Positions 20,057 to 31,621 of a stretch of 32,000 bases of DNA are shown here, piece after piece. This DNA is from Candidatus Saccharimonadota bacterium (GTDB taxonomy: Bacteria > Patescibacteriota > Saccharimonadia > Saccharimonadales > Saccharimonadaceae). The position numbers and the translations under genes are program-made. The notes beneath the pieces are model-generated. The model did not search any database. It worked only from the letters and a program-made list of their open reading frames with translations, and was not told where the DNA came from. Each line of letters begins with the position of its first letter. Within the stretch, counting starts at the first letter, position 1. Location: assembly GCA_001029695.1 (NCBI GenBank), contig CP011211.1, positions 540,001 through 572,000 of the forward strand, written 5' to 3'.

Positions 20057-20752
20057 ATGCCGCCACAGTGGTATGATAGATACATGGAAGCACTTGCATC
20101 ACTTCCCCTCGATAAGTCAACAACAAGATCTATAAAGAAGCGAACAATCTTGCTGTATCAAGGAGAGGTTCCACGACAAGCCTATCTCGTACAAAAAGGT
20201 GCGGTTAAAGTCTATCGCCTTGGAAGGAATGGTGAAGAGCAGATTATTGGATTTCGCATGCCTGGAGACGTCTTCCCAGAAACATGGATATTCGGTAGGA
20301 TCTCGAGTGCACTTTACTACTACGAAGCCCTTGAAGACTGCGAAATTATTACTGCTGAGCGAACTGTATTACGTGAGCATATTCGTCTTCATCCTGAAGT
20401 AGAGGCTGATTTACTCGACTATTTTATCAATAGTCATACGACACAGCTCTTACAAATCACCGCCCTCGAACAGTCGCGAGCAGCAGACAAGCTCCTACTT
20501 ATGCTCTACTACTTGCTTTTTGGGTATACAAAAAAACTTCATGATCAGCAGTACGAACTCAAATTTCATCTGACCCATACGACGCTTGGAAACCTCACCG
20601 GTCTCACACGAGAGACTACAAGCGTTGAGCTTGGTAAGCTAAGAAAAAAGGGAATTGTGAGCTATACGGGTACACAATTCATCATTCACAAAGATGCACT
20701 GCTTTCTCATCTTTCAAAAGAGAGCTTTAGCGACGTCCAGATTGCGCCGTAG
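20057..20752 (+). CDS. Crp/Fnr family transcriptional regulator
   Basis: N-terminal cNMP-binding beta-roll (LYQGEVPRQAYLVQKGAVKVYRL..GEEQIIGF) and C-terminal HTH TLGNLTGLTRETTSVELGKLRKKGIV. There are no N-terminal Cys, so it is not FNR-type. Confidence 0.88.
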   Translation: MPPQWYDRYMEALASLPLDKSTTRSIKKRTILLYQGEVPRQAYLVQKGAVKVYRLGRNGEEQIIGFRMPGDVFPETWIFGRISSALYYYEALEDCEIITAERTVLREHIRLHPEVEADLLDYFINSHTTQLLQITALEQSRAADKLLLMLYYLLFGYTKKLHDQQYELKFHLTHTTLGNLTGLTRETTSVELGKLRKKGIVSYTGTQFIIHKDALLSHLSKESFSDVQIAP

Positions 20753-21119
20753 CGCCGAGCGTATCTTCTACAAGATTCAAAATATCGCGTGGCGAAGCCC
20801 ATGCTTTTAAGATGTAGCGTTCGGCACCTAGCTGATACGCCTCATCAATCTCATCTTGCATGTCATAGTTGCTAAACACTACTACCTTGACTTCAGGATG
20901 CTCATGAATAAGGTCGTACTCACGTAAAAATCCAACACCATCGAGAATCGGCATGCGAAGATCCAAGAGGATAAGGTCCGGCTCAAAAGTAGTTAATTTT
21001 TCTAATGCATCTCTGCCATCGTGCGCAACCTGAACGTCATACTTCGCTTGTTTCAAAAGCGTGTAGTAAGCCTCAGAAAGCGTCACCTCGTCTTCAACAA
21101 TCAATATTTTCTTTGCCAT
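20727..21119 (-). CDS. stand-alone response-regulator receiver (CheY-like, no output domain)
   Basis: ILIVEDE, DLILLDLRMP, VVVFSN and ILKAW motifs. 130 aa. The 3' end overlaps crp/fnr by 26 nt. Confidence 0.88.
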   Translation of the reverse strand: MAKKILIVEDEVTLSEAYYTLLKQAKYDVQVAHDGRDALEKLTTFEPDLILLDLRMPILDGVGFLREYDLIHEHPEVKVVVFSNYDMQDEIDEAYQLGAERYILKAWASPRDILNLVEDTLGATAQSGRR

Positions 21120-21127
21120 TACAGATA

Positions 21128-21133
21128 ATTATA
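21128..21133 (-). promoter_or_regulatory. possible internal -10 box TATAAT 8 nt upstream of the receiver ATG
   Basis: Minus strand reads TATAAT-TATCTGTA-ATG in the 46-bp gap after the kinase gene. Confidence 0.3.
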
Positions 21134-21165
21134 TCCTGTCTTATTTTCTACGGCTATGAGATTTT

Positions 21166-22971
21166 TCACAATTCTTCCTGCTGGTACGGAATAAAGACCG
21201 TGAATGTAGCACCCTTGCCAAGCTGAGACTCAACACTCACGGTGCCGTTATGCAGCAATATCAGATGTCTCGCAAGATATAACCCGACGCCAGTCCCGGA
21301 AACACTATGACTACGTGGGTTCATTACTCGCGAAAACTGCTTAAAGAGTTTTGACTGGTCGGCTTCATCTATTCCGACACCAGTATCTTTCACAGAAAGC
21401 GTATAGCCATCATCTCCGCGGGCAAGTCGCACCGCTATGCGTCCACCGGGATCAGTATATTTTATTGCATTACTAATCAGATTTTCAACAACCATCCGAA
21501 GCATATGATTATCGGCATAGATTGAGGCTTTCTTTATACCCGACAAACTTACTTTAAGCTGTGCCGCAACACTATCATTTCGTTGTTCATCGATAACATC
21601 CCGGACGATCTCAGCAAGATCAAAATCACTTTTAGCGAGTATGATACGCCCCTGTTCAAGCTTTGCAAGATGAAGAATGTCGTTGATCACCTGCAGTTGA
21701 CGTTCATTACTTTGATAAGCTTTTTCCAAAAAGTCTTTCTGTTGTGGCGAAATATCTCCCGCAAATCCCTGCAGTACCATGCCGACATACTGCTTCACAC
21801 CGGTAGCTGGTGTCCGTAACTGGTGTGATGCCAGTGAGAGTAAGTCATCTTTGGCTCCTGCCACGTCACGCTCTTTCTCAAAAAGTAGCCGGTGATGGCG
21901 CGAGCGAAGATAATAAAACGCTACCACACCCACGAGCAGTGCAAGCATGGTGCCAAATATTGCCGTGTAAAATGGTGCGAATACTTGCTGCCGCGACACA
22001 AGAGCATCATCTTTAAACGTATACTCAACGGTAAAATGCTGACCGTAAGCAATGAGCTGCTGCGTTCGTCTCATCGCTCCTTCTAGATGTGGCGTCGATC
22101 TATACAGCTCGACCTCGTCTTCCCCCTTTCCGGACGTCACTCGAACCCCTATTCTGTCATTGTCGATGCGTTTAAATATTGTCGAGAATAAATCACGCGC
22201 CTGAAATGAGGCGTATATATGACCGCGAAGCGCTTTGAGTCGCTCATCGGCAGTTGAAAGCGGCATCGTTTGATCGTAGTACGGTGCGTACATAATCAAC
22301 CCAGTCTCTGAAAATGACTGTGCAGCTTGTGCATTTTTAAATAACTGCAATGTGTTGCTTAACGTGATTTCACCAGACTTTGATGACTCATCCATAGCCT
22401 GCCTCCTGACGGATTCAGATCGAGCATCATACCCCACTGCGTTACTAGTCACTGACGTCATCGGTTCGATATAGGCAATAATCTCACTCGGTTGATTTGT
22501 ATCACCAGAAGTGAATACGATATCCCGTCCATACTGCTGGCTGAGTGTATCACGCACCGACTCACGCTGCTCAGGAGTAATATATTTAGAAACACCAAAT
22601 GCATATATTGCAGGAAACGAAGTCGGTAGCTTATATGTTCCTGCAAATTGTCGCCAAGAATCGACGGTGACCTCACCTGAATTCACTCGGCCAACTCCAC
22701 TCCAAAGAAGCTGGGCATACCCATTCAGATTTGCATTAACTTGTAATTCTGTTTCTTTAAGTTGCTTATCCATCGCCTGGTTCTGAACATTGGAAAGATT
22801 TCGCTGCATAACAGCAGCAATCATCGCCGTCATAAAAGCAATCGAAAGCATAACTAAAAGTGGAATGATAATAAAATCACTCGAAAGGTTTTTAAAGCGC
22901 TGCTGTATGTCTTGATAAAATCTTTTCATAACAAAATATCTCTCCCTCACTATAGGTGCATCAGCATCCAT
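21166..22971 (-). CDS. sensor histidine kinase with a CHASE-like extracytoplasmic domain
   Basis: Two TM helices bracket about 290 aa containing IAYIEPMTSVTSNAVGYDARSESVRRQAMDESSKSGEITLS (CHASE-like). H-box SHQLRTP, N-box ENLISNAIKY, G-boxes DTGVGI and GTGVGL. The start is uncertain (ATG 22971 or 22929). TTG 23007 was rejected because it lies inside the hsp20 promoter. Confidence 0.85.
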   Translation of the reverse strand: MDADAPIVRERYFVMKRFYQDIQQRFKNLSSDFIIIPLLVMLSIAFMTAMIAAVMQRNLSNVQNQAMDKQLKETELQVNANLNGYAQLLWSGVGRVNSGEVTVDSWRQFAGTYKLPTSFPAIYAFGVSKYITPEQRESVRDTLSQQYGRDIVFTSGDTNQPSEIIAYIEPMTSVTSNAVGYDARSESVRRQAMDESSKSGEITLSNTLQLFKNAQAAQSFSETGLIMYAPYYDQTMPLSTADERLKALRGHIYASFQARDLFSTIFKRIDNDRIGVRVTSGKGEDEVELYRSTPHLEGAMRRTQQLIAYGQHFTVEYTFKDDALVSRQQVFAPFYTAIFGTMLALLVGVVAFYYLRSRHHRLLFEKERDVAGAKDDLLSLASHQLRTPATGVKQYVGMVLQGFAGDISPQQKDFLEKAYQSNERQLQVINDILHLAKLEQGRIILAKSDFDLAEIVRDVIDEQRNDSVAAQLKVSLSGIKKASIYADNHMLRMVVENLISNAIKYTDPGGRIAVRLARGDDGYTLSVKDTGVGIDEADQSKLFKQFSRVMNPRSHSVSGTGVGLYLARHLILLHNGTVSVESQLGKGATFTVFIPYQQEEL

Positions 22972-22985
22972 GGTCAATTCACGCA

Positions 22986-23016
22986 GCTTGAAGTATCGAA
23001 AGCTCAAGCATATAAT
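22986..23016 (+). promoter_or_regulatory. hsp20 promoter TTGAAG-N17-TATAAT overlaid by inverted repeat GCTTGA-N12-TCAAGC (HAIR-like)
   Basis: -35 at 22988-22993 and -10 at 23011-23016. The inverted-repeat arms are at 22986-22991 and 23004-23009. The element reads CTTGAaGT-N7-gCTCAAG against the HAIR consensus CTTGAGT-N7-ACTCAAG. Confidence 0.5.
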
Positions 23017-23084
23017 AAAGATACAGGAGCATTAGCGCTTCTCATGCCGTTACAATGACACATCTAACGAAAGGAGAAATAATA

Positions 23085-23516
23085 ATGAACAAGCTTGTCC
23101 GATATGATCCATTTGTTGAGCTGAATGCTCTGCAAAAACAATTTCTTGGTGACGATTGGTTGACGCCGTTTAAGGGAGTGAATATCCCTACAACTGACGT
23201 ATACACAAAAGACAACGAGCTTCGCGTTGAGGTACATCTTCCGAACTTCAACCAAGAAGATGTCGATATTCAAGTAAATGATGGCGCATTAACCATCCAG
23301 GCTGAGCGTCACGAAAAAGAAGAAGATAAGTCAAAAAAATATGTTGTCCGCGAAAGTAGTAGCAGTTTCTACCGTCGCATTCAGCTTCCTGAACGAGCAA
23401 ATACCGACAAGATCGATGCCCATCTCGAAGATGGCGTTCTCAGTGTGACCGTTCCACTCACGCCACTTCCTGAGCCAAAAAAGATTTCAGTGTCGACAAA
23501 AGACAAAAAGAAGTAG
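23085..23516 (+). CDS. Hsp20/alpha-crystallin family small heat-shock protein
   Basis: Alpha-crystallin domain (LRVEVHLPNF...DGALTIQAERHEKEE...FYRRIQLPE...DGVLSVTVP). AAAGGAG lies 8 nt upstream of ATG 23085. Confidence 0.9.
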   Translation: MNKLVRYDPFVELNALQKQFLGDDWLTPFKGVNIPTTDVYTKDNELRVEVHLPNFNQEDVDIQVNDGALTIQAERHEKEEDKSKKYVVRESSSSFYRRIQLPERANTDKIDAHLEDGVLSVTVPLTPLPEPKKISVSTKDKKK

Positions 23517-23601: not shown

Positions 23602-23607
23602 TATAAT
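23602..23607 (+). promoter_or_regulatory. -10 box TATAAT 7 nt upstream of the crtE ATG (leaderless-type promoter of the crt operon)
   Basis: TATAAT-AGCCTAA-ATG with no SD motif. Confidence 0.45.
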
Positions 23608-23614
23608 AGCCTAA

Positions 23615-24685
23615 ATGACGCGATTAACTACCGATCTAGAGGATAAGACTCTTGCAGTCAATAAAATTCTTGACGAGTATTTCAGTCACCAGATTGATGA
23701 AGCAGCTTCTATTAGTGATTCATATAGAAAACTCTGGATAGCACTCCATACGCTTATCCAAGCAGGAGGCAAGCGTGTTCGTCCTCAACTGACATTACTT
23801 GCTTATGAGGCTTTTGGAGGATTGAATTCTGAAAAAATCATCCCTATCGCTGCAGCCCAAGAGCTACTCCACTTTAGTCTTCTCATTCACGACGACATCA
23901 TAGATCGAGATTATATTCGCTATGGTGTTCCGAATGTCTCCGGACAATATCAAGACTATTATCAATCGTTTGTTAAAAACAAAACTGAGCTCACTCATTA
24001 TGCTAATAGCGCAGCACTACTAGGGGGTGATCTTATGCTCTCGAGTGCATACAAACTCATAACATCCTCTAGCGTGTCAGACAAAGATAAAATTACCGCA
24101 CAATCACTACTCAATCAAAGTATCTTTGAGGTAGCTGCTGGCGAATTACTCGACACGGAAGCCGTCTTTATGCCGCTGCGTAGTGGAGATACGATTAAAA
24201 TTGCACGCTATAAGACCGCGAGTTATTCTTTTATCGTTCCACTCCTTACTGGCGCACACCTTGGGGATGCCTCAGAGAAACAACTCCATCTACTGCAGTC
24301 ATTCGCAAGTTCACTTGGCATTGCTTATCAACTAGTAGATGATCTGCTCGGTGTATTTGGAGATGAAAAGATAACAGGTAAATCAACATCAAGTGATCTC
24401 ACTGAAGGAAAACATACGTACATGATTGAATTTTGCCTCGAAAACCTTACGCCTAGCAAGCGAAAAGTTTTCGATGCGGCATTTGGCAAGCCAGACGCGA
24501 GCCCTGTTATGATCATGCAATTAAAAGACATCATCGCGTCATCTGGCGCCAGAGATCATACAGAAAAAGCAATTTTAGAATACGCACATACCGCACGAAC
24601 CGCCCTACAGTCCCTCAATCTCACCCCTACCGACACCTCGTCTTTTGAGCAATTCATTATAAAAGTTACTGATCGGTCGTACTGA
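23615..24685 (+). CDS. crtE: polyprenyl (geranylgeranyl) diphosphate synthase, CrtE/IdsA-like
   Basis: First Asp-rich motif LLIHDDIIDRD and second motif VDDLLGVFGDEKITGK. It is the first gene of the crt operon. Confidence 0.88.
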   Translation: MTRLTTDLEDKTLAVNKILDEYFSHQIDEAASISDSYRKLWIALHTLIQAGGKRVRPQLTLLAYEAFGGLNSEKIIPIAAAQELLHFSLLIHDDIIDRDYIRYGVPNVSGQYQDYYQSFVKNKTELTHYANSAALLGGDLMLSSAYKLITSSSVSDKDKITAQSLLNQSIFEVAAGELLDTEAVFMPLRSGDTIKIARYKTASYSFIVPLLTGAHLGDASEKQLHLLQSFASSLGIAYQLVDDLLGVFGDEKITGKSTSSDLTEGKHTYMIEFCLENLTPSKRKVFDAAFGKPDASPVMIMQLKDIIASSGARDHTEKAILEYAHTARTALQSLNLTPTDTSSFEQFIIKVTDRSY

Positions 24686-25515
24686 TGGAGCTGTATACTT
24701 CTGTTTCGTATGACTTGAGCAAACGACTCACCCTTAGTTATTCCAGCTCATTTGGCATCAGTAGTCGATTATTTGCCCCAGAACTAAAACTGCATATATA
24801 TGCAGTATATGGACTTGTTCGAATAGCTGATGAAATTGTCGACACGTATCGCGGAGAAGATGCACGTGAACAGCTCGATGCGTTTGAAAAAGATACTCTT
24901 GCTGCTATTGAAACAGGATACAGTACAAATCCAATAATACATGCGTTTGCCCAGACAGCTCGTAAATACACGATTACTATAGAGCTGCTACAACCCTTCT
25001 TTGCAAGTATGCGGATTGATCTCTCTCCTGCCACATATAGGGATGAGGATTATCAAAGCTATATTCATGGCTCAGCTGAAGTGGTTGGTCTTATGTGCCT
25101 CAAAGTTTTCTGTGAAGGCGACGAGCGTATGTACACAACGCTAGCCCCTGGTGCCACGGCACTCGGTGCAGCCTATCAGAAAGTGAATTTTCTACGCGAT
25201 ATCGCAAGTGACTATACCGAGCTTGGACGTATGTATTTTCCCGGAATCACCTTCGATATGTTTGATGAGCGCGAAAAGGCGTTAATTGTTGCAGATATCA
25301 AAGCTGACTTTAACACTGCAAATTTAGCCATCCGCAAGCTACCCGCCTCCTGTCAAACAGCCGTTCGAGTAAGCTACACTTACTACACCGAGCTTTTAAA
25401 GAAGCTCGATGAAACTCCTGTCAGTACGCTCAAAGAAAGACGTATTCGGATTTCTACACCACGAAAACTATGGCTACTTGTGAAAACCGTTCTCACCCAA
25501 AGGATACGATCATGA
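24685..25515 (+). CDS. crtB: phytoene synthase
   Basis: YGLVRIADEIVD and YQKVNFLRDIASD Asp-rich motifs. TGATG overlap with crtE. Confidence 0.9.
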   Translation: MELYTSVSYDLSKRLTLSYSSSFGISSRLFAPELKLHIYAVYGLVRIADEIVDTYRGEDAREQLDAFEKDTLAAIETGYSTNPIIHAFAQTARKYTITIELLQPFFASMRIDLSPATYRDEDYQSYIHGSAEVVGLMCLKVFCEGDERMYTTLAPGATALGAAYQKVNFLRDIASDYTELGRMYFPGITFDMFDEREKALIVADIKADFNTANLAIRKLPASCQTAVRVSYTYYTELLKKLDETPVSTLKERRIRISTPRKLWLLVKTVLTQRIRS

Positions 25516-27047
25516 CAAAAGTTATTATAATTGGCGCTGGTATCGGAGGTATTGCCACTGCAAATCTTCTCGCGAAGGCTGGCTATAGCGTTTCTGTTTA
25601 TGAAAAAAATAGCGACGTTGGTGGACGTGCAGGCATCCTTACTGTTGATGATTTCCGTTTTGACACAGGGCCTTCATGGTATCTCATGCCAGAAGTATTT
25701 GAGCATTACTTTTCACTACTTGATAAAGATGTCACTAAAGAACTCGACCTTGTCCGACTTTCGCCCGCCTATAAAGTATTCTTCGAGACGAAGCCGCCGC
25801 TGACCATTTTGAGCGACATTGAGCAGGATGCTGCAACATTCGAAATGATTGAAGCTGGGGCGGGAGCTGCACTCCAGCGATACGTCAAAGACGGAGAAAT
25901 GGTTTACAGACTATCCTTGAAGCACTTCTTGTACAGTAACTTTAGCTCACCCTTCGACTTCTTAAAGCGAGATATTATAACCAGATCATTAACACTGCTT
26001 CGTCGCGCATTTACACCGATAGATGCGTATGTCAGTAATTTCGTCCGTGATCAGCGCCTAAAGCAAATCCTTGAGTATCCAATGGTCTTCCTCGGCACCT
26101 CCCCTTTTGAGGCGCCTGCGATATATAGTCTTATGAGTGCACTTGATTTTAAGGAAGGGGTCTTTTATCCAAAAGGAGGCATGTATACTATCATCGAGCG
26201 GCTCTATGCAGCGAGTAGGGATCTCGGCGTCACCTACTACCTTAATTCACCGGTTGAGAGCATCAATACAAAAAACAGGGCAGTCACTGGTATCACTCTT
26301 CAAAATGGTCAAACAGTAGCTGCAGATATTGTCATTTCAAATGCAGACCTTCACCACACTGAAACCTCCCTACTCTCAGTCGAAGATCAGTCATACCCGG
26401 CGACGTACTGGGATAAACAAAAAGCAGGTCCAAGCGCACTTCTACTCTACCTTGGCGTTAAAGGTACATTACCAAATCTTGAACACCATAACCTTATATT
26501 TGTCGATGAATGGAAAAAGAACTTTACTGATATCTACACAGACAAGATTACGCCCACTCCTGCATCAATGTATGTATGCAAACCAAGTACATCCGATAGC
26601 ACTGTCGCACCCGAAGGTCATGAAAATATTTTCATACTTGTACCACTGCCTCCTGATGCATCAATTGAGGTGTCGGCAATTGAACATCTTGCAGACATGT
26701 ATATCGAACAGTTTAGCCGTATGACTGGAATTGCAGATTTTTCTGAGCGTATCGTCTCACGACATTTATTCGGCCCTGATGACTTCCGTACCAAATTTCA
26801 TGCCTGGCAAGCTACAGCGCTTGGCCCCTCCCATATCCTCAAACAAAGTGCATTATTTCGCACACCAAATAAAAGTCGGAAGATTACTAACCTCTACTAT
26901 GTCGGCGGCTCGACAACACCGGGTATCGGTTTGCCGATGTGTCTTATCGGAGCTGAGCTTATATATAAGCGCCTGGCTGGCGATAAGAAGGGTGGTCCAG
27001 TACACATGGTAGAGCGGCTTGTTCCCACGAAAGAAAATACACTATGA
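25512..27047 (+). CDS. crtI: phytoene desaturase
   Basis: N-terminal VIIIGAGIGGIATANLLAKAGYSVSVYEKNSDVGGRAG and C-terminal YYVGGSTTPGIGLPMCLIGAEL. The ATG at 25512 forms an ATGA overlap with the crtB stop. Confidence 0.92.
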   Translation: MTKVIIIGAGIGGIATANLLAKAGYSVSVYEKNSDVGGRAGILTVDDFRFDTGPSWYLMPEVFEHYFSLLDKDVTKELDLVRLSPAYKVFFETKPPLTILSDIEQDAATFEMIEAGAGAALQRYVKDGEMVYRLSLKHFLYSNFSSPFDFLKRDIITRSLTLLRRAFTPIDAYVSNFVRDQRLKQILEYPMVFLGTSPFEAPAIYSLMSALDFKEGVFYPKGGMYTIIERLYAASRDLGVTYYLNSPVESINTKNRAVTGITLQNGQTVAADIVISNADLHHTETSLLSVEDQSYPATYWDKQKAGPSALLLYLGVKGTLPNLEHHNLIFVDEWKKNFTDIYTDKITPTPASMYVCKPSTSDSTVAPEGHENIFILVPLPPDASIEVSAIEHLADMYIEQFSRMTGIADFSERIVSRHLFGPDDFRTKFHAWQATALGPSHILKQSALFRTPNKSRKITNLYYVGGSTTPGIGLPMCLIGAELIYKRLAGDKKGGPVHMVERLVPTKENTL

Positions 27048-27352
27048 TAGAGCAGTGGTATTACCTATTTACCCTCGTACTCTCGATCAGCGGTCTACTT
27101 ATTATCGACTCACGTTACAGGCTTGCCTTTTGGTATGACAAAAAGCGAGCTACGACAACGATTGGCATTACAATGCTTGTCTTTATCATCTGGGATATAT
27201 TAGGTATTGCGTTTGGGATCTTCCACCATGGGGGTAGTCTCTACACGCTACCGATACGACTACTGCCAGAATTCCCACTTGAAGAGCTCTTTTTCCTTTT
27301 CCTTCTATGTTACGTAACATTACTACTTTATACAGGGAGCAAACGATTATGA
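27044..27352 (+). CDS. crtYe: lycopene-cyclase-domain protein, small subunit 1 (CrtYe/CrtYc-like)
   Basis: 102 aa, 3 TM helices, PLEE (PxEE) motif. ATGA overlap with crtI. Confidence 0.8.
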   Translation: MIEQWYYLFTLVLSISGLLIIDSRYRLAFWYDKKRATTTIGITMLVFIIWDILGIAFGIFHHGGSLYTLPIRLLPEFPLEELFFLFLLCYVTLLLYTGSKRL

Positions 27353-27639
27353 CCACGTACCTAATACTCAACCTAGCCTTTCTAGTGATAGCAGGGATTA
27401 TGCTTCATAGGCATCTCAAAAAACCTTCTCACTCATGGATTTTGATGCTGCTTATTCTTCTACTGCTCACTGCTATTTTTGACTCAATGATTATTGCCGC
27501 TGGTATCGTTGGGTACGACCAAGGAAAGCTCTTAGGGGTATACATTGGACGTGCACCAATTGAAGATTTTTTCTATGCACTACTCGCTGCAGTAGTAGTT
27601 CCTGCGCTATGGAATAGCTCTAAAAAGGAGAATGTATGA
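27349..27639 (+). CDS. crtYf: lycopene-cyclase-domain protein, small subunit 2 (CrtYf/CrtYd-like)
   Basis: 96 aa, 3 TM helices, PIED (PxED) motif. ATGA overlaps on both sides. Confidence 0.8.
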   Translation: MTTYLILNLAFLVIAGIMLHRHLKKPSHSWILMLLILLLLTAIFDSMIIAAGIVGYDQGKLLGVYIGRAPIEDFFYALLAAVVVPALWNSSKKENV

Positions 27640-28490
27640 TACGCGCACTCAAAAAACTTTTCCTCATCTCACGACCAATCTCATGGCCAAACACGGCATT
27701 TCCTTTTGCGGCTGGCTACTTAATCTCCGGCGGGTCAGTCGACACGCTCTTTATTGTCGCAACATTTTATTTTCTCATACCCTATAACTTACTTATGTAT
27801 GGCATCAATGATGTTTTTGACTACGAATCGGACATGCAAAACCCACGAAAAGGAGGCATAGAAGGGGCACGCGAACAAAAAGCATTTCATCCAGTCATCA
27901 TATGGGCGGCAGTCACATCAAACATACCATTTGTTTGCTATATGCTCCTAGCGGGCACGTATGTATCGGGAGCCATTCTTTTGCTTACTATCTTTTTTGT
28001 GATAGCGTATTCAGTCGCAAAGTTACGATTCAAAGAAATTCCGATTCTCGACTCAGCAACAAGTAGTATACATTTTGTCGGACCACTCATATTTGCACTC
28101 AGCTTGTTTGGGTTTTCGATCGAACAATTACCGTATGTGCTAGCATTTTTCCTATGGGGGATGGCTAGTCACGCCTTCGGAGCGATTCAGGATATTATAC
28201 CTGACCGTGAAGGGAAAATCTCTTCAATTGCAACCGTATTTGGAGCTAGAAGAACTGTTTGGTTCGTTTTTATATTATATGCAATCAGTACCGTACTTAT
28301 CGCGAGTCAAGGAGTTCCAGGGCTAGTAGTTGGCTGCACGGGCATTCTTTATATGATAAACGTACTCCCTTATCTTTCTATAGACGATACGACTTCATCA
28401 CGCGTGAATACGGCGTGGCGTCGATTTATCTGGCTAAACCTCTTTACAGGCTTCGTTATCACTATGACGCTTATATATGTCAGTGTATAG
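27636..28490 (+). CDS. crtEb: UbiA-family prenyltransferase, lycopene elongase (CrtEb-like)
   Basis: SRPISWPNTAFPF, MYGINDVFDYESDMQNPRKGGIEGA, KLRFKE and FFLWGMASHAFGAIQDIIPDRE motifs. It is the last gene of the operon. Confidence 0.8.
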   Translation: MIRALKKLFLISRPISWPNTAFPFAAGYLISGGSVDTLFIVATFYFLIPYNLLMYGINDVFDYESDMQNPRKGGIEGAREQKAFHPVIIWAAVTSNIPFVCYMLLAGTYVSGAILLLTIFFVIAYSVAKLRFKEIPILDSATSSIHFVGPLIFALSLFGFSIEQLPYVLAFFLWGMASHAFGAIQDIIPDREGKISSIATVFGARRTVWFVFILYAISTVLIASQGVPGLVVGCTGILYMINVLPYLSIDDTTSSRVNTAWRRFIWLNLFTGFVITMTLIYVSV

Positions 28491-28523: not shown

Positions 28524-28946
28524 CTACTGAACTGGTCCGATATCAATCATCCACTCCACGCCAAATTTATCTGTAAGCATACCAAATGTATCGCCCCATG
28601 GAGCTTTTTCGAGCGGTACAGTGACTTTACCACCTGCAGCCAGCTTCTCCCAGTAACTACGAAGAAGCGGCTCATCATCACCATTGAGCGTCAAAGATAC
28701 CCTTGATCCAGTTTGAAACTCTATGCCCTTTGGAGTATCTGCCGCCATGACTTCTACGCCATTCTCGCCCTTTAGGTAGGCATGCATGATTTTTTCCTTG
28801 TCACCCTCATCAACAGGCATACCCGAGTCTTGCATACTCCCAAACGTATCCATATAGACTTCGCCACCAAAAACTGATTTATAAAATTCAATGGCCTCGC
28901 GAGCGTTGTCTTGAAACGATATGTAGCTATTTAATTTTACTGTCAT
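28524..28946 (-). CDS. VOC-fold protein, PhnB/YjdN-like
   Basis: NAREAIEFYKSVFGGEV and APWGDTFGMLTDKFGVEWMI motifs. AGGAGG lies upstream. Confidence 0.8.
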   Translation of the reverse strand: MTVKLNSYISFQDNAREAIEFYKSVFGGEVYMDTFGSMQDSGMPVDEGDKEKIMHAYLKGENGVEVMAADTPKGIEFQTGSRVSLTLNGDDEPLLRSYWEKLAAGGKVTVPLEKAPWGDTFGMLTDKFGVEWMIDIGPVQ

Positions 28947-28970
28947 ACAATCCTCCTATCGATAGTTGTT

Positions 28971-29423
28971 TTAGAAATCTGCGATGACAAGCTTCTTCAT
29001 CTGCATCATATTTTTAAAGGCATCGGCACTTTTCATAAGTTCGTCCATATTCTCAGGAACAACCTGCCAGCTCAATCCGTATTGATCCTTGCACCAGCCG
29101 CATTGTTCTGCCTCTGATACTTTGGAAAGTTTACTCCAAAAGTAGTCGATCTCTTCTTGGTCTTTACAAGAAATTAAGAACGAAATAGCTTCACTAAACT
29201 TAAACTCAGGACCAGTATTTATAGCAGTGAACCGCTGTGATGCTAGTTCAAATTCTATGGTTAACTCTTTGCCTGCAAGAGATTGCTGAAAATCCATCAG
29301 ACCTTCCGTCGGGTAATACGCGGTGGATACGACCTTACTGTCCGGAAATACCGATACATAAAAATCTACAGCTTCTTTGGCATTTCCATCAAACCATAGA
29401 TTCGGTGTAATTTTTTGCAACAT
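28971..29423 (-). CDS. VOC-fold protein (3-demethylubiquinone-9 3-methyltransferase-domain type)
   Basis: ITPNLWFDGNAKEAVDFYVSVFPDSKV and CGWCKDQYGLSWQVVP motifs. AAGGAGG lies upstream. Confidence 0.8.
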   Translation of the reverse strand: MLQKITPNLWFDGNAKEAVDFYVSVFPDSKVVSTAYYPTEGLMDFQQSLAGKELTIEFELASQRFTAINTGPEFKFSEAISFLISCKDQEEIDYFWSKLSKVSEAEQCGWCKDQYGLSWQVVPENMDELMKSADAFKNMMQMKKLVIADF

Positions 29424-29461
29424 AATACCCTCCTTTTACCTTAGTTAAATCTTCTTCTCTA

Positions 29462-29872
29462 TCAAGCAACAAAGTCAGCATTCATCCACATAGGCTCCCA
29501 CGTATGGCCGTCTGGGTCTTCAACCTCATAGCTAAACATCATACCCGAATCAATCCCCATGTCTACGCGATAGTAGTCTCCGCCATTTTCCTTGGCAACA
29601 TCGGCAAACTTCTGCACATCCTCTTTCGAGTCAAGACTAAGAGCAAGCAATACACCACTTGTCCGAGCAGTATCTGCAACCTCTTTTTCACCTATAAATT
29701 TCTTATAAAAATCATGCTTTAAAAGCATGACAACAATATTGTTTGACCACATCATACTACTTGCGTTTGAATCGGAAAACATTGCATTTTTAGTAAAACC
29801 CAGTGCTTCATAAAATCCAGTGGATTTCTTTAAATCACTCACCGGTAAATTAACATAAATTTGTTTACTCAT
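29462..29872 (-). CDS. VOC family glyoxalase/bleomycin-resistance-fold protein
   Basis: IYVNLPVSDLKKSTGFYEALGF and VEDPDGHTWE motifs. GGAGGTG lies upstream. Confidence 0.8.
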   Translation of the reverse strand: MSKQIYVNLPVSDLKKSTGFYEALGFTKNAMFSDSNASSMMWSNNIVVMLLKHDFYKKFIGEKEVADTARTSGVLLALSLDSKEDVQKFADVAKENGGDYYRVDMGIDSGMMFSYEVEDPDGHTWEPMWMNADFVA

Positions 29873-29964
29873 TACACACCTCCCCGCTTATATACCCCTA
29901 CAACTCTATTATCCCACTCACAATACACCATAGCAAACAATCCTGATGAAAAAAATCGTTTAAT

Positions 29965-30588
29965 CTACGTGGAGCGGATTTCTTGCGCCGTAAGCCTGGT
30001 ATTAAACAGTGACGTATCGGGTTGGAATCTCCGGCCATTCGATAGCACCCCCAAATCTACAGCATCAAATCCCATATCGTTAATAAGTAACTCGACTTTA
30101 GCCTTAGCATCCGCGTCATTACCTGCAAGCGCAATCGCTCTTCGGCCAGGACTAGCCTCCGGAAGACTATGTTGCTCTAGCTCGTTATACGCCACATGAT
30201 TCAAGGTCTTTACTATCCTTGCGCCAGGTAGGTATTGCTCGATATATTCGCTTGAAGTGACTTCTTGGTTCATGAACTCAGGGATCTCACCTTCTGTTGG
30301 TGGCCAGTAATTCATCGCGTCTATAACTATCTTTCCCTTCAATAACTGAACGGGGAGTGACTTGTATTGATTGAGTGGCAATGCGAGCACGATACTATCG
30401 CTCTGAAGAATCGCCTCATCTACCGTTGTAGCAATCACGCCAGGAAGTAGCACTTTGACAATCAACGACAAGCTCTCTGGTCCACGAGAGTTTGCGAGGC
30501 GCACCACATACCCTGCCGCTGACGCTTGTCTTGCAATTGCCGTTCCTAAACGTCCCGATCCTATAATACCTAGTGATGGCTTACTCAC
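29965..30588 (-). CDS. NADP-binding oxidoreductase of the NADPH-dependent F420 reductase (Npd, COG2085) family
   Basis: LGIIGSGRLGTAIARQ Rossmann motif, about 207 aa. GTG start overlaps the LLM gene by 8 nt, with GGGAGG 9 nt upstream. Confidence 0.75.
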   Translation of the reverse strand: MSKPSLGIIGSGRLGTAIARQASAAGYVVRLANSRGPESLSLIVKVLLPGVIATTVDEAILQSDSIVLALPLNQYKSLPVQLLKGKIVIDAMNYWPPTEGEIPEFMNQEVTSSEYIEQYLPGARIVKTLNHVAYNELEQHSLPEASPGRRAIALAGNDADAKAKVELLINDMGFDAVDLGVLSNGRRFQPDTSLFNTRLTAQEIRST

Positions 30589-31621
30589 TTTTCAAGGCCT
30601 CCCTCACCATCGGAGCAACTTTCGTACCGAGCAGCTCGATAGACCTGAGGAATTTATCGTGCGGAAGCTGACCGGTGTCCATCTGAAAGATATGGCGACT
30701 ATGACCAATCTTTTTATGTAGAGCAATGATACGTTCAGTAATCTCCTCAGGGCTTCCCGCAAATAATGCTCCGTCAACATTTGACTCGCTATCGTAATGC
30801 TGGCGTGTGGGTGCGGCAAATCCACGAACCCTACCTAGTGTTGTCATCGTCCAACTCCACGACTTCCAGAACGTGTCTTTTGCATCTTTTGCGTCCTCTG
30901 CGATATAGCCTGGTGTCGCAATTGCAACTCGAGTATCTGCATGCGACACATCATACTGACGTGACGCCTCCCGATAAAGATCAATTAGTGGGGCAAACCG
31001 TGAAACATGGCCACCAATAATCGCATACGTAATTGGCATACCAAGCGAAGCTGCTCGAATAGATGATTCCGGATTTCCTCCGGTAGCCAGCCAGATGTCC
31101 ATAGGTTTTTTAGGACGTGGGACAATTTCTATATCATTAAGCGCTGGACGAAACTGCCCATCCCACGTCACCTTACCGTCTTTGCTTGCGTTAATTTGAA
31201 GTAACAACTCAAGCTTTTCAGCATACAAGCGGTCATAGTCTCGAAGATCATATCCAAAAAGCGGAAATGACTCGGTAGATGACCCACGCCCAGCGATGAT
31301 CTCCACCCGATCGCCCGAAACGATATCAGCTGTCGCGAACTGCTGATACACCCGCACTGGATCTTCCGTGCTCAACACCGTTACAGCACTCGTTAATTTT
31401 ATGTTTTTTGTCGTCGCTGCCGCTGCAGCGAGGATTGTCGCCGGTGAAGACGCTGGAAAATATTCAGTATGATGCTCGCCGACCCCAAACACATCCAACC
31501 CCACTTCATCGGCTAACTGGATCGCTTCGAGTAAGTTTGTTACCGACTCGTGCGTCGGACCTAGCTTTCCCACCTTTCTTTGTACATCTCCAAAACTAAA
31601 TACACCTAATTCCATCGTCAT
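30581..31621 (-). CDS. LLM-class (luciferase-like) flavin/F420-dependent oxidoreductase
   Basis: 346 aa. LDVFGVGEHH, TEDPVRVYQQFATADIVSGDRVEIIAGRG and IWLATGGNPES are typical of LLM TIM-barrel proteins. Confidence 0.82.
   Translation of the reverse strand: MTMELGVFSFGDVQRKVGKLGPTHESVTNLLEAIQLADEVGLDVFGVGEHHTEYFPASSPATILAAAAATTKNIKLTSAVTVLSTEDPVRVYQQFATADIVSGDRVEIIAGRGSSTESFPLFGYDLRDYDRLYAEKLELLLQINASKDGKVTWDGQFRPALNDIEIVPRPKKPMDIWLATGGNPESSIRAASLGMPITYAIIGGHVSRFAPLIDLYREASRQYDVSHADTRVAIATPGYIAEDAKDAKDTFWKSWSWTMTTLGRVRGFAAPTRQHYDSESNVDGALFAGSPEEITERIIALHKKIGHSRHIFQMDTGQLPHDKFLRSIELLGTKVAPMVREALKSE

What the first reader, a model, noticed from the sequence alone, without database searches (positions are those of the whole stretch)
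23615..28490. Complete, fully translationally coupled C50-type carotenoid operon (crtE-B-I-Ye-Yf-Eb) in a genome context that does not look actinobacterial
Six co-directional genes have every junction overlapped: TGATG at 24685, and ATGA at 25512-25515, 27044-27047, 27349-27352 and 27636-27639. They are served by a single leaderless-type TATAAT box. The products read directly from the sequence are:
- a GGPP-type synthase,
- a phytoene synthase,
- a phytoene desaturase,
- two roughly 100-aa lycopene-cyclase-domain membrane subunits, each with the PxE(E/D) motif (PLEE, PIED),
- a UbiA prenyltransferase (NDVFDYESD, KLRFKE, WGMAS...QDxxxDRE).

A split small cyclase plus a UbiA lycopene elongase in this exact order is the architecture of decaprenoxanthin-type C50 clusters in Corynebacterium and related Actinobacteria. 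The CrtE second Asp-rich motif is the DDLLGVFGD variant that I associate with actinobacterial IdsA-type enzymes. The surrounding genes, however, look like a reduced monoderm or Patescibacteria-like genome: clusterless MutY, YtxH/DUF948, AbrB, and many orphan small membrane proteins.

No glycosyltransferase, hydroxylase, MEP/MVA gene or cluster-specific regulator is present. Spot GC counts inside and outside the operon are similar (about 37-47 % per 60-nt line), so it is not an obviously recent insertion. Which C50 (or C45) end product is made, and why this organism makes it, are both open questions.
Basis: partly seen in the sequence, partly recalled or inferred. Interest (0 to 1): 0.72.

Follow-up and report, generated by a model that had tools for sequence, protein, structure and literature searches.

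The report
C50 carotenoid operon in a Saccharibacterium
A tiny, host-dependent bacterium of the candidate phylum Saccharibacteria carries a complete six-gene operon of the type actinobacteria use to make long (C50) membrane pigments; this is odd because published genome surveys find no pathway in this group for the five-carbon building blocks the pigment needs.

Summary
Six co-directional genes lie at 23615-28490: crtE, crtB, crtI, two small lycopene-cyclase-domain subunits, and a UbiA elongase. All five junctions overlap. A TATAAT box ends 7 nt before the first ATG.

The UbiA protein falls in the same NCBIfam equivalog family as the crt-cluster prenyltransferases of Micrococcales, not in the haloarchaeal family. 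Gene order is identical to 41 actinobacterial loci.

The window is from a Candidatus Saccharibacteria genome. Identical proteins occur in three independent assemblies, on contigs of up to 1 Mb.

The operon is not a one-off:
- 39 of the 80 closest species-level genomes are Saccharibacteria or Patescibacteria with the same order.
- These operons separate from Micrococcales with 100% bootstrap in a five-protein tree.
- Their GC content matches their own flanks.
- All catalytic motifs are kept, and a leaderless-type -10 box is conserved.

Another Saccharibacterial lineage carries an elongase-glycosyltransferase fusion.

A 2023 paper already noted "lyeJ" in Patescibacteria and called the pathway bacterioruberin. 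The cyclase subunits here point instead to a cyclic C50 product.

Three things remain open: the ring type, the direction of transfer, and the source of IPP/DMAPP.

Verdict: a new member of a known kind, of moderate interest.

The parts
23602..23607 (+). -10 promoter hexamer TATAAT, 7 nt upstream of the crtE start codon; no Shine-Dalgarno sequence, so a leaderless-type arrangement
   Evidence: Sequence read. In 16 of 23 Saccharibacterial orthologous loci a TA[TC]A[AG]T hexamer starts 12-18 nt before the crtE start. Other position windows give 0-2, and shuffles give a mean of 0.4 (maximum 3). An SD-like 4-mer occurs in 1 of 23.
23615..24685 (+). crtE/idsA-like short-chain trans-prenyl diphosphate synthase (presumed GGPP synthase), 356 aa
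   Evidence: PF00348, 165 bits. Best solved relative is 3lk5, deposited as 'geranylgeranyl pyrophosphate synthase', E=6e-33. The DDIID and DDLLGVFGD motifs have their Asp residues 100% conserved in 23 Saccharibacterial and 27 actinobacterial orthologues. Below the cut-off of every NCBIfam equivalog, so chain length is inferred, not shown.
24685..25515 (+). crtB phytoene synthase, 276 aa; start overlaps the crtE stop (TGATG)
   Evidence: PF00494, 138 bits. PDB relatives are HpnC, CrtM and phytoene synthase 5iys. Asp-rich motifs DEIVD and RDxxxD are 100% conserved.
25512..27047 (+). crtI phytoene desaturase, 511 aa; ATGA overlap with crtB
   Evidence: TIGR02734 crtI_fam, 523.5 bits against a cut-off of 238. 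PDB relatives 4rep and 4dgk (phytoene dehydrogenase), E=1e-64 and 1e-58. The GxGxxG motif is conserved.
27044..27352 (+). crtYe-like small membrane subunit of a heterodimeric carotenoid cyclase, 102 aa, PLEE motif
   Evidence: TIGR03462, 49.1 bits against a cut-off of 39.4. 2-3 hydrophobic segments. P-x-E-E is 97-100% conserved in 39 Saccharibacterial and 40 actinobacterial orthologues.
27349..27639 (+). crtYf-like second cyclase subunit, 96 aa, PIED motif
   Evidence: TIGR03462, 52.6 bits; PF18916, 45.8 bits. 3 hydrophobic segments. P-x-E-D is 100% conserved. Fused to the elongase in some Actinobacteria.
27636..28490 (+). crtEb-type UbiA prenyltransferase (lycopene elongase), 284 aa
   Evidence: NF009608, 390.7 bits (cut-off 217). 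The haloarchaeal-type NF009516 gives 130.7 bits (cut-off 205). Micrococcales crt-cluster UbiAs score 406-469 bits on NF009608, whereas a Haloferax UbiA scores 223 on NF009516. At least 7 TM segments; NDxxDxxxD and DxxxD motifs are 100% conserved.

Best explanation
This is a functional carotenoid operon of the actinobacterial (Micrococcales) cyclic-C50 type, residing in the chromosome of a Candidatus Saccharibacteria (CPR/Patescibacteria) bacterium.

Inferred mechanism:
1. One leaderless transcript starts just after the TATAAT box, and the six cistrons are translated in a coupled chain.
2. CrtE makes GGPP.
3. CrtB condenses two GGPP to phytoene.
4. CrtI desaturates phytoene to lycopene.
5. The UbiA enzyme CrtEb adds a C5 unit from DMAPP to each end, giving first a C45 and then an acyclic C50 of the flavuxanthin type.
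6. The CrtYe/CrtYf membrane heterodimer cyclises the elongated ends to a decaprenoxanthin-, sarcinaxanthin- or C.p.450-type C50 carotenoid that sits in the cell membrane.

Shown here: gene content, order, coupling, family membership, motif conservation, host phylum, and wide occurrence within Saccharibacteria.

Inferred from established knowledge of the C. glutamicum pathway: each catalytic step and the C50 product.

Not determined: ring type, physiological role (membrane stiffening or oxidative protection is most plausible for a cell that cannot make its own lipids), and the source of IPP/DMAPP. Published surveys say Saccharibacteria cannot make these precursors.

The operon lineage was most likely exchanged long ago between Saccharibacteria and Actinobacteria, the best-documented (though not exclusive) host phylum of cultivated Saccharibacteria. 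It has since been inherited within the group.
For: - Family hits for all six proteins. The elongase falls in the same equivalog family as Micrococcales crt-cluster UbiAs, not the haloarchaeal family.
- The order is identical in 39 Saccharibacteria/Patescibacteria-type loci and 41 Actinomycetota loci among the 80 best of 570 relatives found in species-representative genomes.
- Catalytic motifs are about 100% conserved in both phyla.
- Junctions are tight or overlapping in all Saccharibacterial operons.
- The -10 box position is conserved.
- Host identity: the exact proteins occur in three Saccharibacteria assemblies, on contigs of 334 kb to about 1 Mb.
- A concatenated CrtB+I+Ye+Yf+Eb tree (1193 columns, 29 Saccharibacterial and 30 actinobacterial taxa) separates the two phyla with bootstrap 100. 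Diversity within Saccharibacteria (mean distance 0.69) is as large as within Micrococcales (0.61).
- Operon GC is 42-53%, about equal to its own flanks (mean difference +1.3%).
- Pathway knowledge: PMC3598387, PMC5401885 and PMC6393565, abstracts only.
Against: - There is no biochemical evidence for any step.
- I could not place an experimentally characterised CrtEb, CrtE2, LbtBC or LyeJ sequence in the trees. The link to C50 chemistry therefore runs through NCBIfam family membership and through loci of genera known to make C50 pigments.
- CrtE and CrtB score below the cut-offs of all NCBIfam equivalog models.
- Literature reports no C5 isoprenoid pathway in Saccharimonadia (PMC9166423; PMC6031116). 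The operon might therefore lack substrate unless precursors are imported.
- The source habitats include aquifer sediment, where photoprotection is not needed.
- Single-protein trees have weak deep support (bootstraps 21-34).
Confidence: 0.8

Rival explanations
1. The two small subunits are an ordinary C40 lycopene beta-cyclase (CrtYc/Yd type). The end product would be beta-carotene or a similar C40 pigment, possibly feeding retinal for the rhodopsins known in some Saccharibacteria. The UbiA protein would then have another role.
For: TIGR03462/PF18916 cannot tell C40 cyclases from C50 cyclases. Rhodopsins and heliorhodopsins occur in Saccharimonadia (PMC9296517; PMC9166423). In Luna-1 Actinobacteria the same genes were annotated as crtY, a lycopene cyclase leading to beta-carotene (PMC12422013).
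Against: The UbiA gene is translationally coupled to the cyclase genes, and in some Actinobacteria it is fused to crtYf. It belongs to the crt-cluster family NF009608. No blh/brp or rhodopsin gene was found among the window ORFs scanned. Jaffe et al. found no blh in rhodopsin-bearing Saccharibacteria.
Confidence: 0.07
2. The operon makes an acyclic, bacterioruberin-like C50 carotenoid, as was proposed for Patescibacteria from Lake Baikal on the basis of lyeJ/crtD/cruF hits.
For: PMC9948471 reports lyeJ, crtD and cruF homologues in Patescibacteria bins and in one Saccharibacteria MAG. CrtI here also scores 517 bits on the CrtID model, below its cut-off of 640.
Against: The elongase scores 130.7 on the haloarchaeal-type model NF009516 (cut-off 205) against 390.7 on NF009608. 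Two cyclase-domain genes sit between crtI and the elongase. There is only one CrtI-family gene and no CruF-like gene among the window ORFs scanned.
Confidence: 0.05
3. The operon is intact but effectively idle or decaying, because the cell has no supply of IPP/DMAPP.
For: No C5 pathway has been reported for Saccharimonadia. None is present in the 32-kb window or in the flanks of about 40 related loci.
Against: ORFs are intact and catalytic residues are about 100% conserved across 23-40 divergent Saccharibacterial orthologues. The promoter position and gene coupling are also conserved. These cells need polyprenyl carriers for peptidoglycan anyway (a Mur ligase is in the window), so some isoprenoid source must exist.
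Confidence: 0.05
4. The operon is actinobacterial DNA wrongly assembled or binned into Saccharibacteria genomes.
For: The closest non-Saccharibacterial relatives are Micrococcales. MAG labels can be wrong: L012 is labelled Chloroflexi.
Against: The operon is embedded in contigs of 334 kb, 631 kb and about 1 Mb from independent studies, with identical flanks. Its GC equals that of the flanks. The 39 Saccharibacteria/Patescibacteria-type loci group together in the CrtEb tree (weak support), and the 29 with all five proteins separate from Micrococcales with bootstrap 100. Partial flank synteny exists among Saccharibacteria.
Confidence: 0.02

Closest known systems
Corynebacterium glutamicum decaprenoxanthin operon crtE-cg0722-crtB-crtI-crtYe-crtYf-crtEb
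   Same: Same enzyme set and same relative order. A split small cyclase is followed by a UbiA elongase (abstracts of PMC3598387 and PMC5401885). The CrtE-like protein's best solved relative is a structure deposited as GGPP synthase, 3lk5.
   Different: No cg0722-like gene lies between crtE and crtB. No divergent MarR-type CrtR regulator lies upstream; instead hsp20, a CHASE histidine kinase, a response regulator and a Crp-type regulator are there. The host is a CPR bacterium, a group reported to lack the MEP pathway that feeds the C. glutamicum operon.
crt clusters of Micrococcales (Glutamicibacter bergerei L063, Arthrobacter spp., Cellulomonas, Georgenia, Agreia, Subtercola, Rhodoluna)
   Same: Identical six-gene order. 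CrtEb is 49-55% identical and falls in the same NCBIfam family NF009608. The same catalytic motifs are present.
   Different: The two phyla are separated with 100% bootstrap in the five-protein tree. Saccharibacterial operons are more tightly packed: the median crtE/crtB gap is -1 nt against +17 nt. They also have 42-53% GC.
LbtA/LbtBC-type clusters (C.p.450 type), where the second cyclase subunit is fused to the elongase
   Same: Same domains in the same order.
   Different: In the window, crtYf and crtEb are separate ORFs overlapping by ATGA. Fusions were seen in the Arthrobacter sp. StoSoilB13 plasmid (L010), Paenarthrobacter (L082, L088) and Leucobacter (L079).
Bacterioruberin pathway LyeJ-CrtD-CruF (haloarchaea, pink Arthrobacter); claimed for Patescibacteria in PMC9948471
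   Same: A UbiA-family lycopene elongase makes a C50 backbone. That paper is prior notice that CPR bacteria can carry such genes.
   Different: The window protein fails the haloarchaeal-type model (130.7 bits against a cut-off of 205). Cyclase subunits are present. No cruF or second desaturase is in the window.
Second Saccharibacterial architecture: crtYe-crtYf-crtEb::GT2 fusion, divergent from crtI-crtE-crtB (L092, L095)
   Same: Same enzyme families. The elongase domain also falls in NF009608 (325 bits) and is 44% identical to the window's.
   Different: The elongase is fused to a family-2 glycosyltransferase (about 670 aa). The genes are split into two divergent units next to secE-nusG-rplK-rplA, and an extra conserved 450-aa gene of unknown function is present.

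Membership tests
Actinobacterial-type cyclic C50 carotenoid cluster (crtE-B-I-Ye-Yf-Eb) | Lycopene-forming core: prenyl diphosphate synthase, phytoene synthase, phytoene desaturase | tested here: met
   PF00348, 165 bits; PF00494, 138 bits; TIGR02734, 523 bits against a cut-off of 238. PDB relatives.
Actinobacterial-type cyclic C50 carotenoid cluster (crtE-B-I-Ye-Yf-Eb) | UbiA prenyltransferase of the crt-cluster (lycopene elongase) family adjacent to the cyclase genes | tested here: met
   NF009608, 390.7 bits (cut-off 217). Micrococcales cluster proteins score 406-469 on the same model. ATGA overlap with crtYf.
Actinobacterial-type cyclic C50 carotenoid cluster (crtE-B-I-Ye-Yf-Eb) | Two small lycopene-cyclase-domain membrane subunits, each with PxE(E/D) | tested here: met
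   TIGR03462, 49.1 and 52.6 bits (cut-off 39.4). PLEE and PIED are conserved. 2-3 TM segments each.
Actinobacterial-type cyclic C50 carotenoid cluster (crtE-B-I-Ye-Yf-Eb) | Gene order as in actinobacterial clusters | tested here: met
   Identical order in 41 Actinomycetota loci and 39 Saccharibacteria-type loci.
Actinobacterial-type cyclic C50 carotenoid cluster (crtE-B-I-Ye-Yf-Eb) | Enzymatic conversion of lycopene to a C45/C50 carotenoid and its cyclisation | not testable with these tools
   Needs heterologous expression and LC-MS.
Actinobacterial-type cyclic C50 carotenoid cluster (crtE-B-I-Ye-Yf-Eb) | Clustering with experimentally characterised elongases (CrtEb, CrtE2, LbtBC) in a phylogeny | not tested
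Only family-model membership and loci from C50-producing genera were used.
Bacterioruberin pathway (LyeJ-CrtD-CruF) | LyeJ-type elongase/hydratase | tested here: not met
   NF009516, 130.7 bits, below its cut-off of 205. A Haloferax UbiA reaches 222.7 on that model. That NF009516 stands for LyeJ-type enzymes is my inference.
Bacterioruberin pathway (LyeJ-CrtD-CruF) | CruF hydratase and a separate CrtD desaturase next to the elongase | tested here: not met
   Neither is among the window ORFs scanned. The rest of the genome could not be searched.
C40 heterodimeric lycopene beta-cyclase (CrtYc/CrtYd) | Cyclase-domain pair acting on lycopene without an elongase | tested here: inconclusive
   The domain model is shared by C40 and C50 cyclases. 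The coupled elongase argues against this reading, but substrate preference cannot be read from the sequence.
Candidatus Saccharibacteria (Saccharimonadia) genome | Window proteins occur in genomes classified as Saccharibacteria, on long contigs | tested here: met
   The exact UbiA protein is in GCA_003508055.1 (631-kb contig), GCA_001790535.1 (334 kb) and an ENA Rifle scaffold, and is named 'Candidatus Saccharibacteria bacterium'. AspRS is identical in GCA_016000075.1. Flank synteny with Saccharibacteria MAG L040. No marker-gene phylogeny of my own was made.

The most novel reading that the evidence does not exclude
Environmental Saccharibacteria as a group make membrane-spanning cyclic C50 carotenoids, glycosylated in one lineage. 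They would do so although they lack any pathway for IPP/DMAPP, so the pigment would be built from C5 or longer prenyl units taken from the host. The gene set would have been exchanged with Actinobacteria. If so, this would be a lineage-wide, host-fed lipid trait in a group thought to have almost no biosynthesis, and a chemical marker that could be used to track or sort these cells.
Probability: 0.35. Interest if true: 0.7.

Novelty: new member of a known kind. Interest (0 to 1): 0.5.

Why it matters
CPR/Patescibacteria are viewed as near-minimal cells that cannot make lipids, nucleotides or most cofactors. A conserved six-enzyme pathway for a 50-carbon membrane pigment, present in dozens of Saccharibacterial species, runs against that picture.

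It raises a concrete and testable question: where do ten C5 units per pigment molecule come from, if published surveys are right that Saccharimonadia have no MEP or mevalonate pathway?

It also links Saccharibacteria to Actinobacteria, the best-documented host phylum of cultivated Saccharibacteria, through a shared gene cluster.

It suggests the 2023 'bacterioruberin' call for Patescibacteria may need re-checking, because the loci examined here carry cyclase subunits and point to cyclic C50 pigments.

It also offers a possible optical or chemical handle on these cells. A genome with an identical AspRS was recovered from oxic diesel enrichment cultures (GCA_016000075.1). The enrichments are described in PMC7786006, whose main text and held supplements do not mention carotenoids or isoprenoids.

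Tried and rejected
1. Rfam and tRNA scans of the window found nothing.
2. The generic promoter scan did not pick up the TATAAT box, and it found fewer sites than chance predicts. I therefore tested the box by comparison across loci instead.
3. The plasmid collection gave one useful unannotated Arthrobacter locus, plus haloarchaeal UbiAs used as an outgroup. No annotated 'lycopene elongase' reference was obtained.
4. A PDB sequence search for the elongase gave no hit.
5. Broad single-protein NJ trees were rooted with a Haloferax UbiA, or by midpoint using 57 cluster representatives. Saccharibacteria appear next to freshwater Microbacteriaceae, but bootstraps are only 21-34%. That sister group is low-GC and may be a compositional artefact. 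The direction and number of transfers are left open.
6. Naming the cluster representatives with the listing of cluster members was mostly uninformative.
7. Conserved neighbours such as idi, MEP/MVA genes, rhodopsin or a glycosyltransferase were sought in about 40 Saccharibacterial flanks. None was recurrent apart from a histidine kinase/response regulator pair.
8. The supplements of PMC7786006 were searched for isoprenoid or carotenoid annotations; there were none.
9. Whole-genome presence or absence of MEP/MVA genes could not be tested, because the tools return at most 10 kb around a gene.
10. Contamination or misbinning was considered and rejected.


Full report
**Observation.** I read each junction from the sequence:
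- crtE/crtB: TGATG, with the stop at 24683-85 and the start at 24685-87.
- The other four junctions: ATGA at 25512-15, 27044-47, 27349-52 and 27636-39.

A TATAAT hexamer lies at 23602-07. Seven bases separate it from the crtE ATG at 23615, and there is no Shine-Dalgarno sequence. The quoted motifs are all present. GC is 0.41-0.45 across the operon and 0.40-0.49 elsewhere in the window.

**What the genes are.** Pfam and NCBIfam give the following:

| Gene | Best family match | Score |
|---|---|---|
| crtE | polyprenyl synthase PF00348 | 165 bits |
| crtB | squalene/phytoene synthase PF00494 | 138 bits |
| crtI | crtI family TIGR02734 | 523 bits (cut-off 238) |
| crtYe, crtYf | lycopene-cyclase domain TIGR03462 | 49 and 53 bits (cut-off 39.4) |
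| crtEb | UbiA PF01040 | 80 bits |

Solved-structure relatives agree with these assignments. They include phytoene dehydrogenase 4dgk, the group HpnC/CrtM/phytoene synthase, and a structure deposited as GGPP synthase, 3lk5.

The UbiA protein scores 390.7 bits on the NCBIfam equivalog NF009608 (cut-off 217). It scores only 130.7 on NF009516 (cut-off 205). To find out what these unnamed 'prenyltransferase' models stand for, I scored UbiA proteins from crt clusters:
- Glutamicibacter, Rhodoluna, Cellulomonas and an Arthrobacter plasmid all fall in NF009608, at 406-469 bits.
- A Haloferax UbiA falls in NF009516, at 223 bits.

The window protein therefore belongs with the actinobacterial crt-cluster elongases.

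Simple hydropathy gives 2-3 membrane segments for each small subunit and at least seven for the UbiA protein.

**Whose genome it is.**
- The exact 284-aa protein is encoded on a 631-kb contig of GCA_003508055.1, a 334-kb contig of GCA_001790535.1 and a 179-kb Rifle scaffold. The flanks are identical in all three.
- Its cluster is recorded on a contig of 1.04 Mb and is named 'Candidatus Saccharibacteria bacterium'.
- The window's AspRS is identical to one in GCA_016000075.1. The accession series of that assembly (JAECR...) matches the Saccharibacteria genomes from oxic diesel enrichments described in PMC7786006.

The rest of the window fits a small monoderm genome. It holds a Mur ligase, AspRS, MscS, CorA, MFS transporters, MsrA, YtxH, Sua5 and many ORFs with no family. 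It holds no glycosyltransferase, MEP/MVA gene or CruF.

**Distribution and architecture.** A scan of one genome per species, using an alignment of elongase homologues, found 570 relatives. Of the best 80, 39 are Saccharibacteria, Saccharimonadales or Patescibacteria MAGs at 51-73% identity; one of these is labelled Chloroflexi and two only 'bacterium'. The other 41 are Actinomycetota, nearly all Micrococcales, at 49-55% identity.

In essentially every locus long enough to show it, the order is crtE-B-I-Ye-Yf-Eb. In four actinobacterial loci, crtYf and crtEb are a single ORF.

Junctions in the Saccharibacterial operons are overlapping or within a few bases of each other.

Catalytic residues are invariant or nearly so in both phyla. 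These are the two Asp-rich motifs of CrtE and of CrtB, the GxGxxG of CrtI, PxEE and PxED in the cyclase subunits, and NDxxDxxxD and DxxxD in the elongase.

**Promoter.** In 16 of 23 Saccharibacterial loci that include crtE, a TA[TC]A[AG]T hexamer starts 12-18 nt before the start codon. The same test in other position windows gives 0-2, and shuffled sequences give a mean of 0.4 (maximum 3). An SD-like 4-mer occurs in only one locus.

**Evolution.**
- A neighbour-joining tree of concatenated CrtB, CrtI, CrtYe, CrtYf and CrtEb (1193 columns) separates 29 Saccharibacterial taxa from 30 actinobacterial taxa with bootstrap 100. Mean distances are 0.69 within Saccharibacteria, 0.61 within Micrococcales and 0.91 between them.
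- Operon GC tracks each genome's own flanks: 42-53% in Saccharibacteria, with a mean difference of +1.3%.
- Flanks are mostly not conserved. The window does share upstream genes with Saccharibacteria MAG L040 and downstream genes with L012.

These results argue for an old presence in the lineage, not recent insertion or contamination.

Single-protein trees place the Saccharibacterial clade beside freshwater Microbacteriaceae, inside Micrococcales diversity. Support is weak (bootstraps 21-34). That sister group is also low-GC, so compositional attraction is possible. I therefore leave the direction and number of transfers open.

**A second Saccharibacterial form.** Among distant representatives of the family are proteins of about 670 aa in which the elongase domain is fused to a family-2 glycosyltransferase. 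More than 90 clusters exist, and most of the few that carry an organism name are Candidatus Saccharibacteria.

In two long contigs (L092, L095) the fusion gene follows crtYe-crtYf. It lies divergent from crtI-crtE-crtB plus a conserved 450-aa gene of unknown function, and next to secE-nusG-rplK-rplA. Its elongase domain also passes NF009608, at 325 bits. Carotenoid synthesis is therefore broader in this group than the window alone shows, and some relatives probably glycosylate the pigment.

**Mechanism.** Following the pathway established in C. glutamicum (PMC3598387, PMC5401885, PMC6393565; abstracts):
1. GGPP is made by CrtE.
2. CrtB condenses it to phytoene.
3. CrtI desaturates phytoene to lycopene.
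4. CrtEb adds two C5 units.
5. CrtYe/Yf cyclise the elongated ends.

Every catalytic step here is inferred from homology. The ring type cannot be read from the sequences.

**Prior knowledge.**
- PMC9948471 (2023) reported lyeJ, crtD and cruF homologues in Lake Baikal Patescibacteria, including one Saccharibacteria MAG, and interpreted them as a bacterioruberin pathway.
- PMC7786006, which describes those diesel-enrichment Saccharibacteria genomes, does not mention carotenoids or isoprenoids. Two recent Saccharibacteria genome surveys do not mention them either.
- PMC6031116 found no IPP pathway in a rhizosphere Saccharibacterium and inferred scavenging.
- PMC9296517 shows that rhodopsin-bearing Saccharibacteria lack blh.

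The presence of C50-type genes in CPR bacteria is therefore not wholly new. I did not find three things described in the library I could search: the cyclic-C50 operon with its cyclase subunits, its breadth and monophyly in Saccharibacteria, and the precursor paradox.

**Verdict.** It is a new member of a known kind in an unexpected phylum. Interest is moderate (0.5). The open question that matters most is the source of IPP/DMAPP, which I could not test because the tools do not give whole-genome access.

Noticed in passing
window 20057-23007: A Crp/FNR-type regulator (+), a response regulator (-) and a CHASE-domain histidine kinase (-) lie just upstream of hsp20 and the crt operon. The kinase/regulator pair recurs next to the operon in Saccharibacterial loci L019, L026, L039, L041 and L049, and the Crp gene in L019, L039 and L045. 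They may be local regulators.
   Followed up: partly
window 28524-31621 (- strand): Three VOC/glyoxalase/PhnB-like genes are followed by an F420-type NADP oxidoreductase and a luciferase-like monooxygenase. The last two are shared with L012. Enzymes of this kind are typical of Actinobacteria, so this may be another exchanged block.
   Followed up: no
L012 (SEAL01000015.1, 'Chloroflexi bacterium PMG_070'): This locus is the nearest relative of the window's operon (69% CrtEb identity) and shares its downstream genes. The contig is probably a misbinned or mislabelled Saccharibacterium.
   Followed up: partly
L092 8001-10016; L095 8001-10004; proteins P0127, P0286, P0314: These are elongase-glycosyltransferase (UbiA-GT2) fusion proteins of about 670 aa, in a second crt architecture found in genomes mostly named Saccharibacteria. 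The architecture is crtYe-crtYf-fusion, divergent from crtI-crtE-crtB, beside secE-nusG-rplK-rplA.
   Followed up: partly
L092 2538-3899 (-); L095 2529-3881 (-): A conserved protein of about 450 aa with no Pfam or NCBIfam match lies directly downstream of crtB in the second architecture. It could be an unknown carotenoid-related function.
   Followed up: partly
L010 6677-7876; L079; L082; L088: crtYf and crtEb are fused into one ORF in the Arthrobacter sp. StoSoilB13 megaplasmid, in Leucobacter chironomi and in two Paenarthrobacter genomes (LbtBC-like). The Arthrobacter plasmid region has no gene annotation in the PLSDB gene table.
   Followed up: partly
window 25470/25512 and 27307/27349: Public gene calls disagree on the starts of crtI (525 vs 511 aa) and crtYf (110 vs 96 aa). 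The ATGA-coupled shorter forms fit the tight junctions seen in related operons, but no alignment was run that could detect conservation of the longer N-termini.
   Followed up: partly
proteins P0270, P0196, P0207, P0225: Other domain fusions occur in the elongase family. One is an 852-aa desaturase (CrtI-like) fused to UbiA. Others are proteins of about 515 aa with an unassigned N-terminal extension of about 230 aa. Their organisms are unknown.
   Followed up: no
window 23055-23516: An Hsp20/alpha-crystallin gene lies on the same strand 98 nt upstream of crtE, with no terminator detected between them. Read-through co-transcription with the crt genes cannot be excluded.
   Followed up: no
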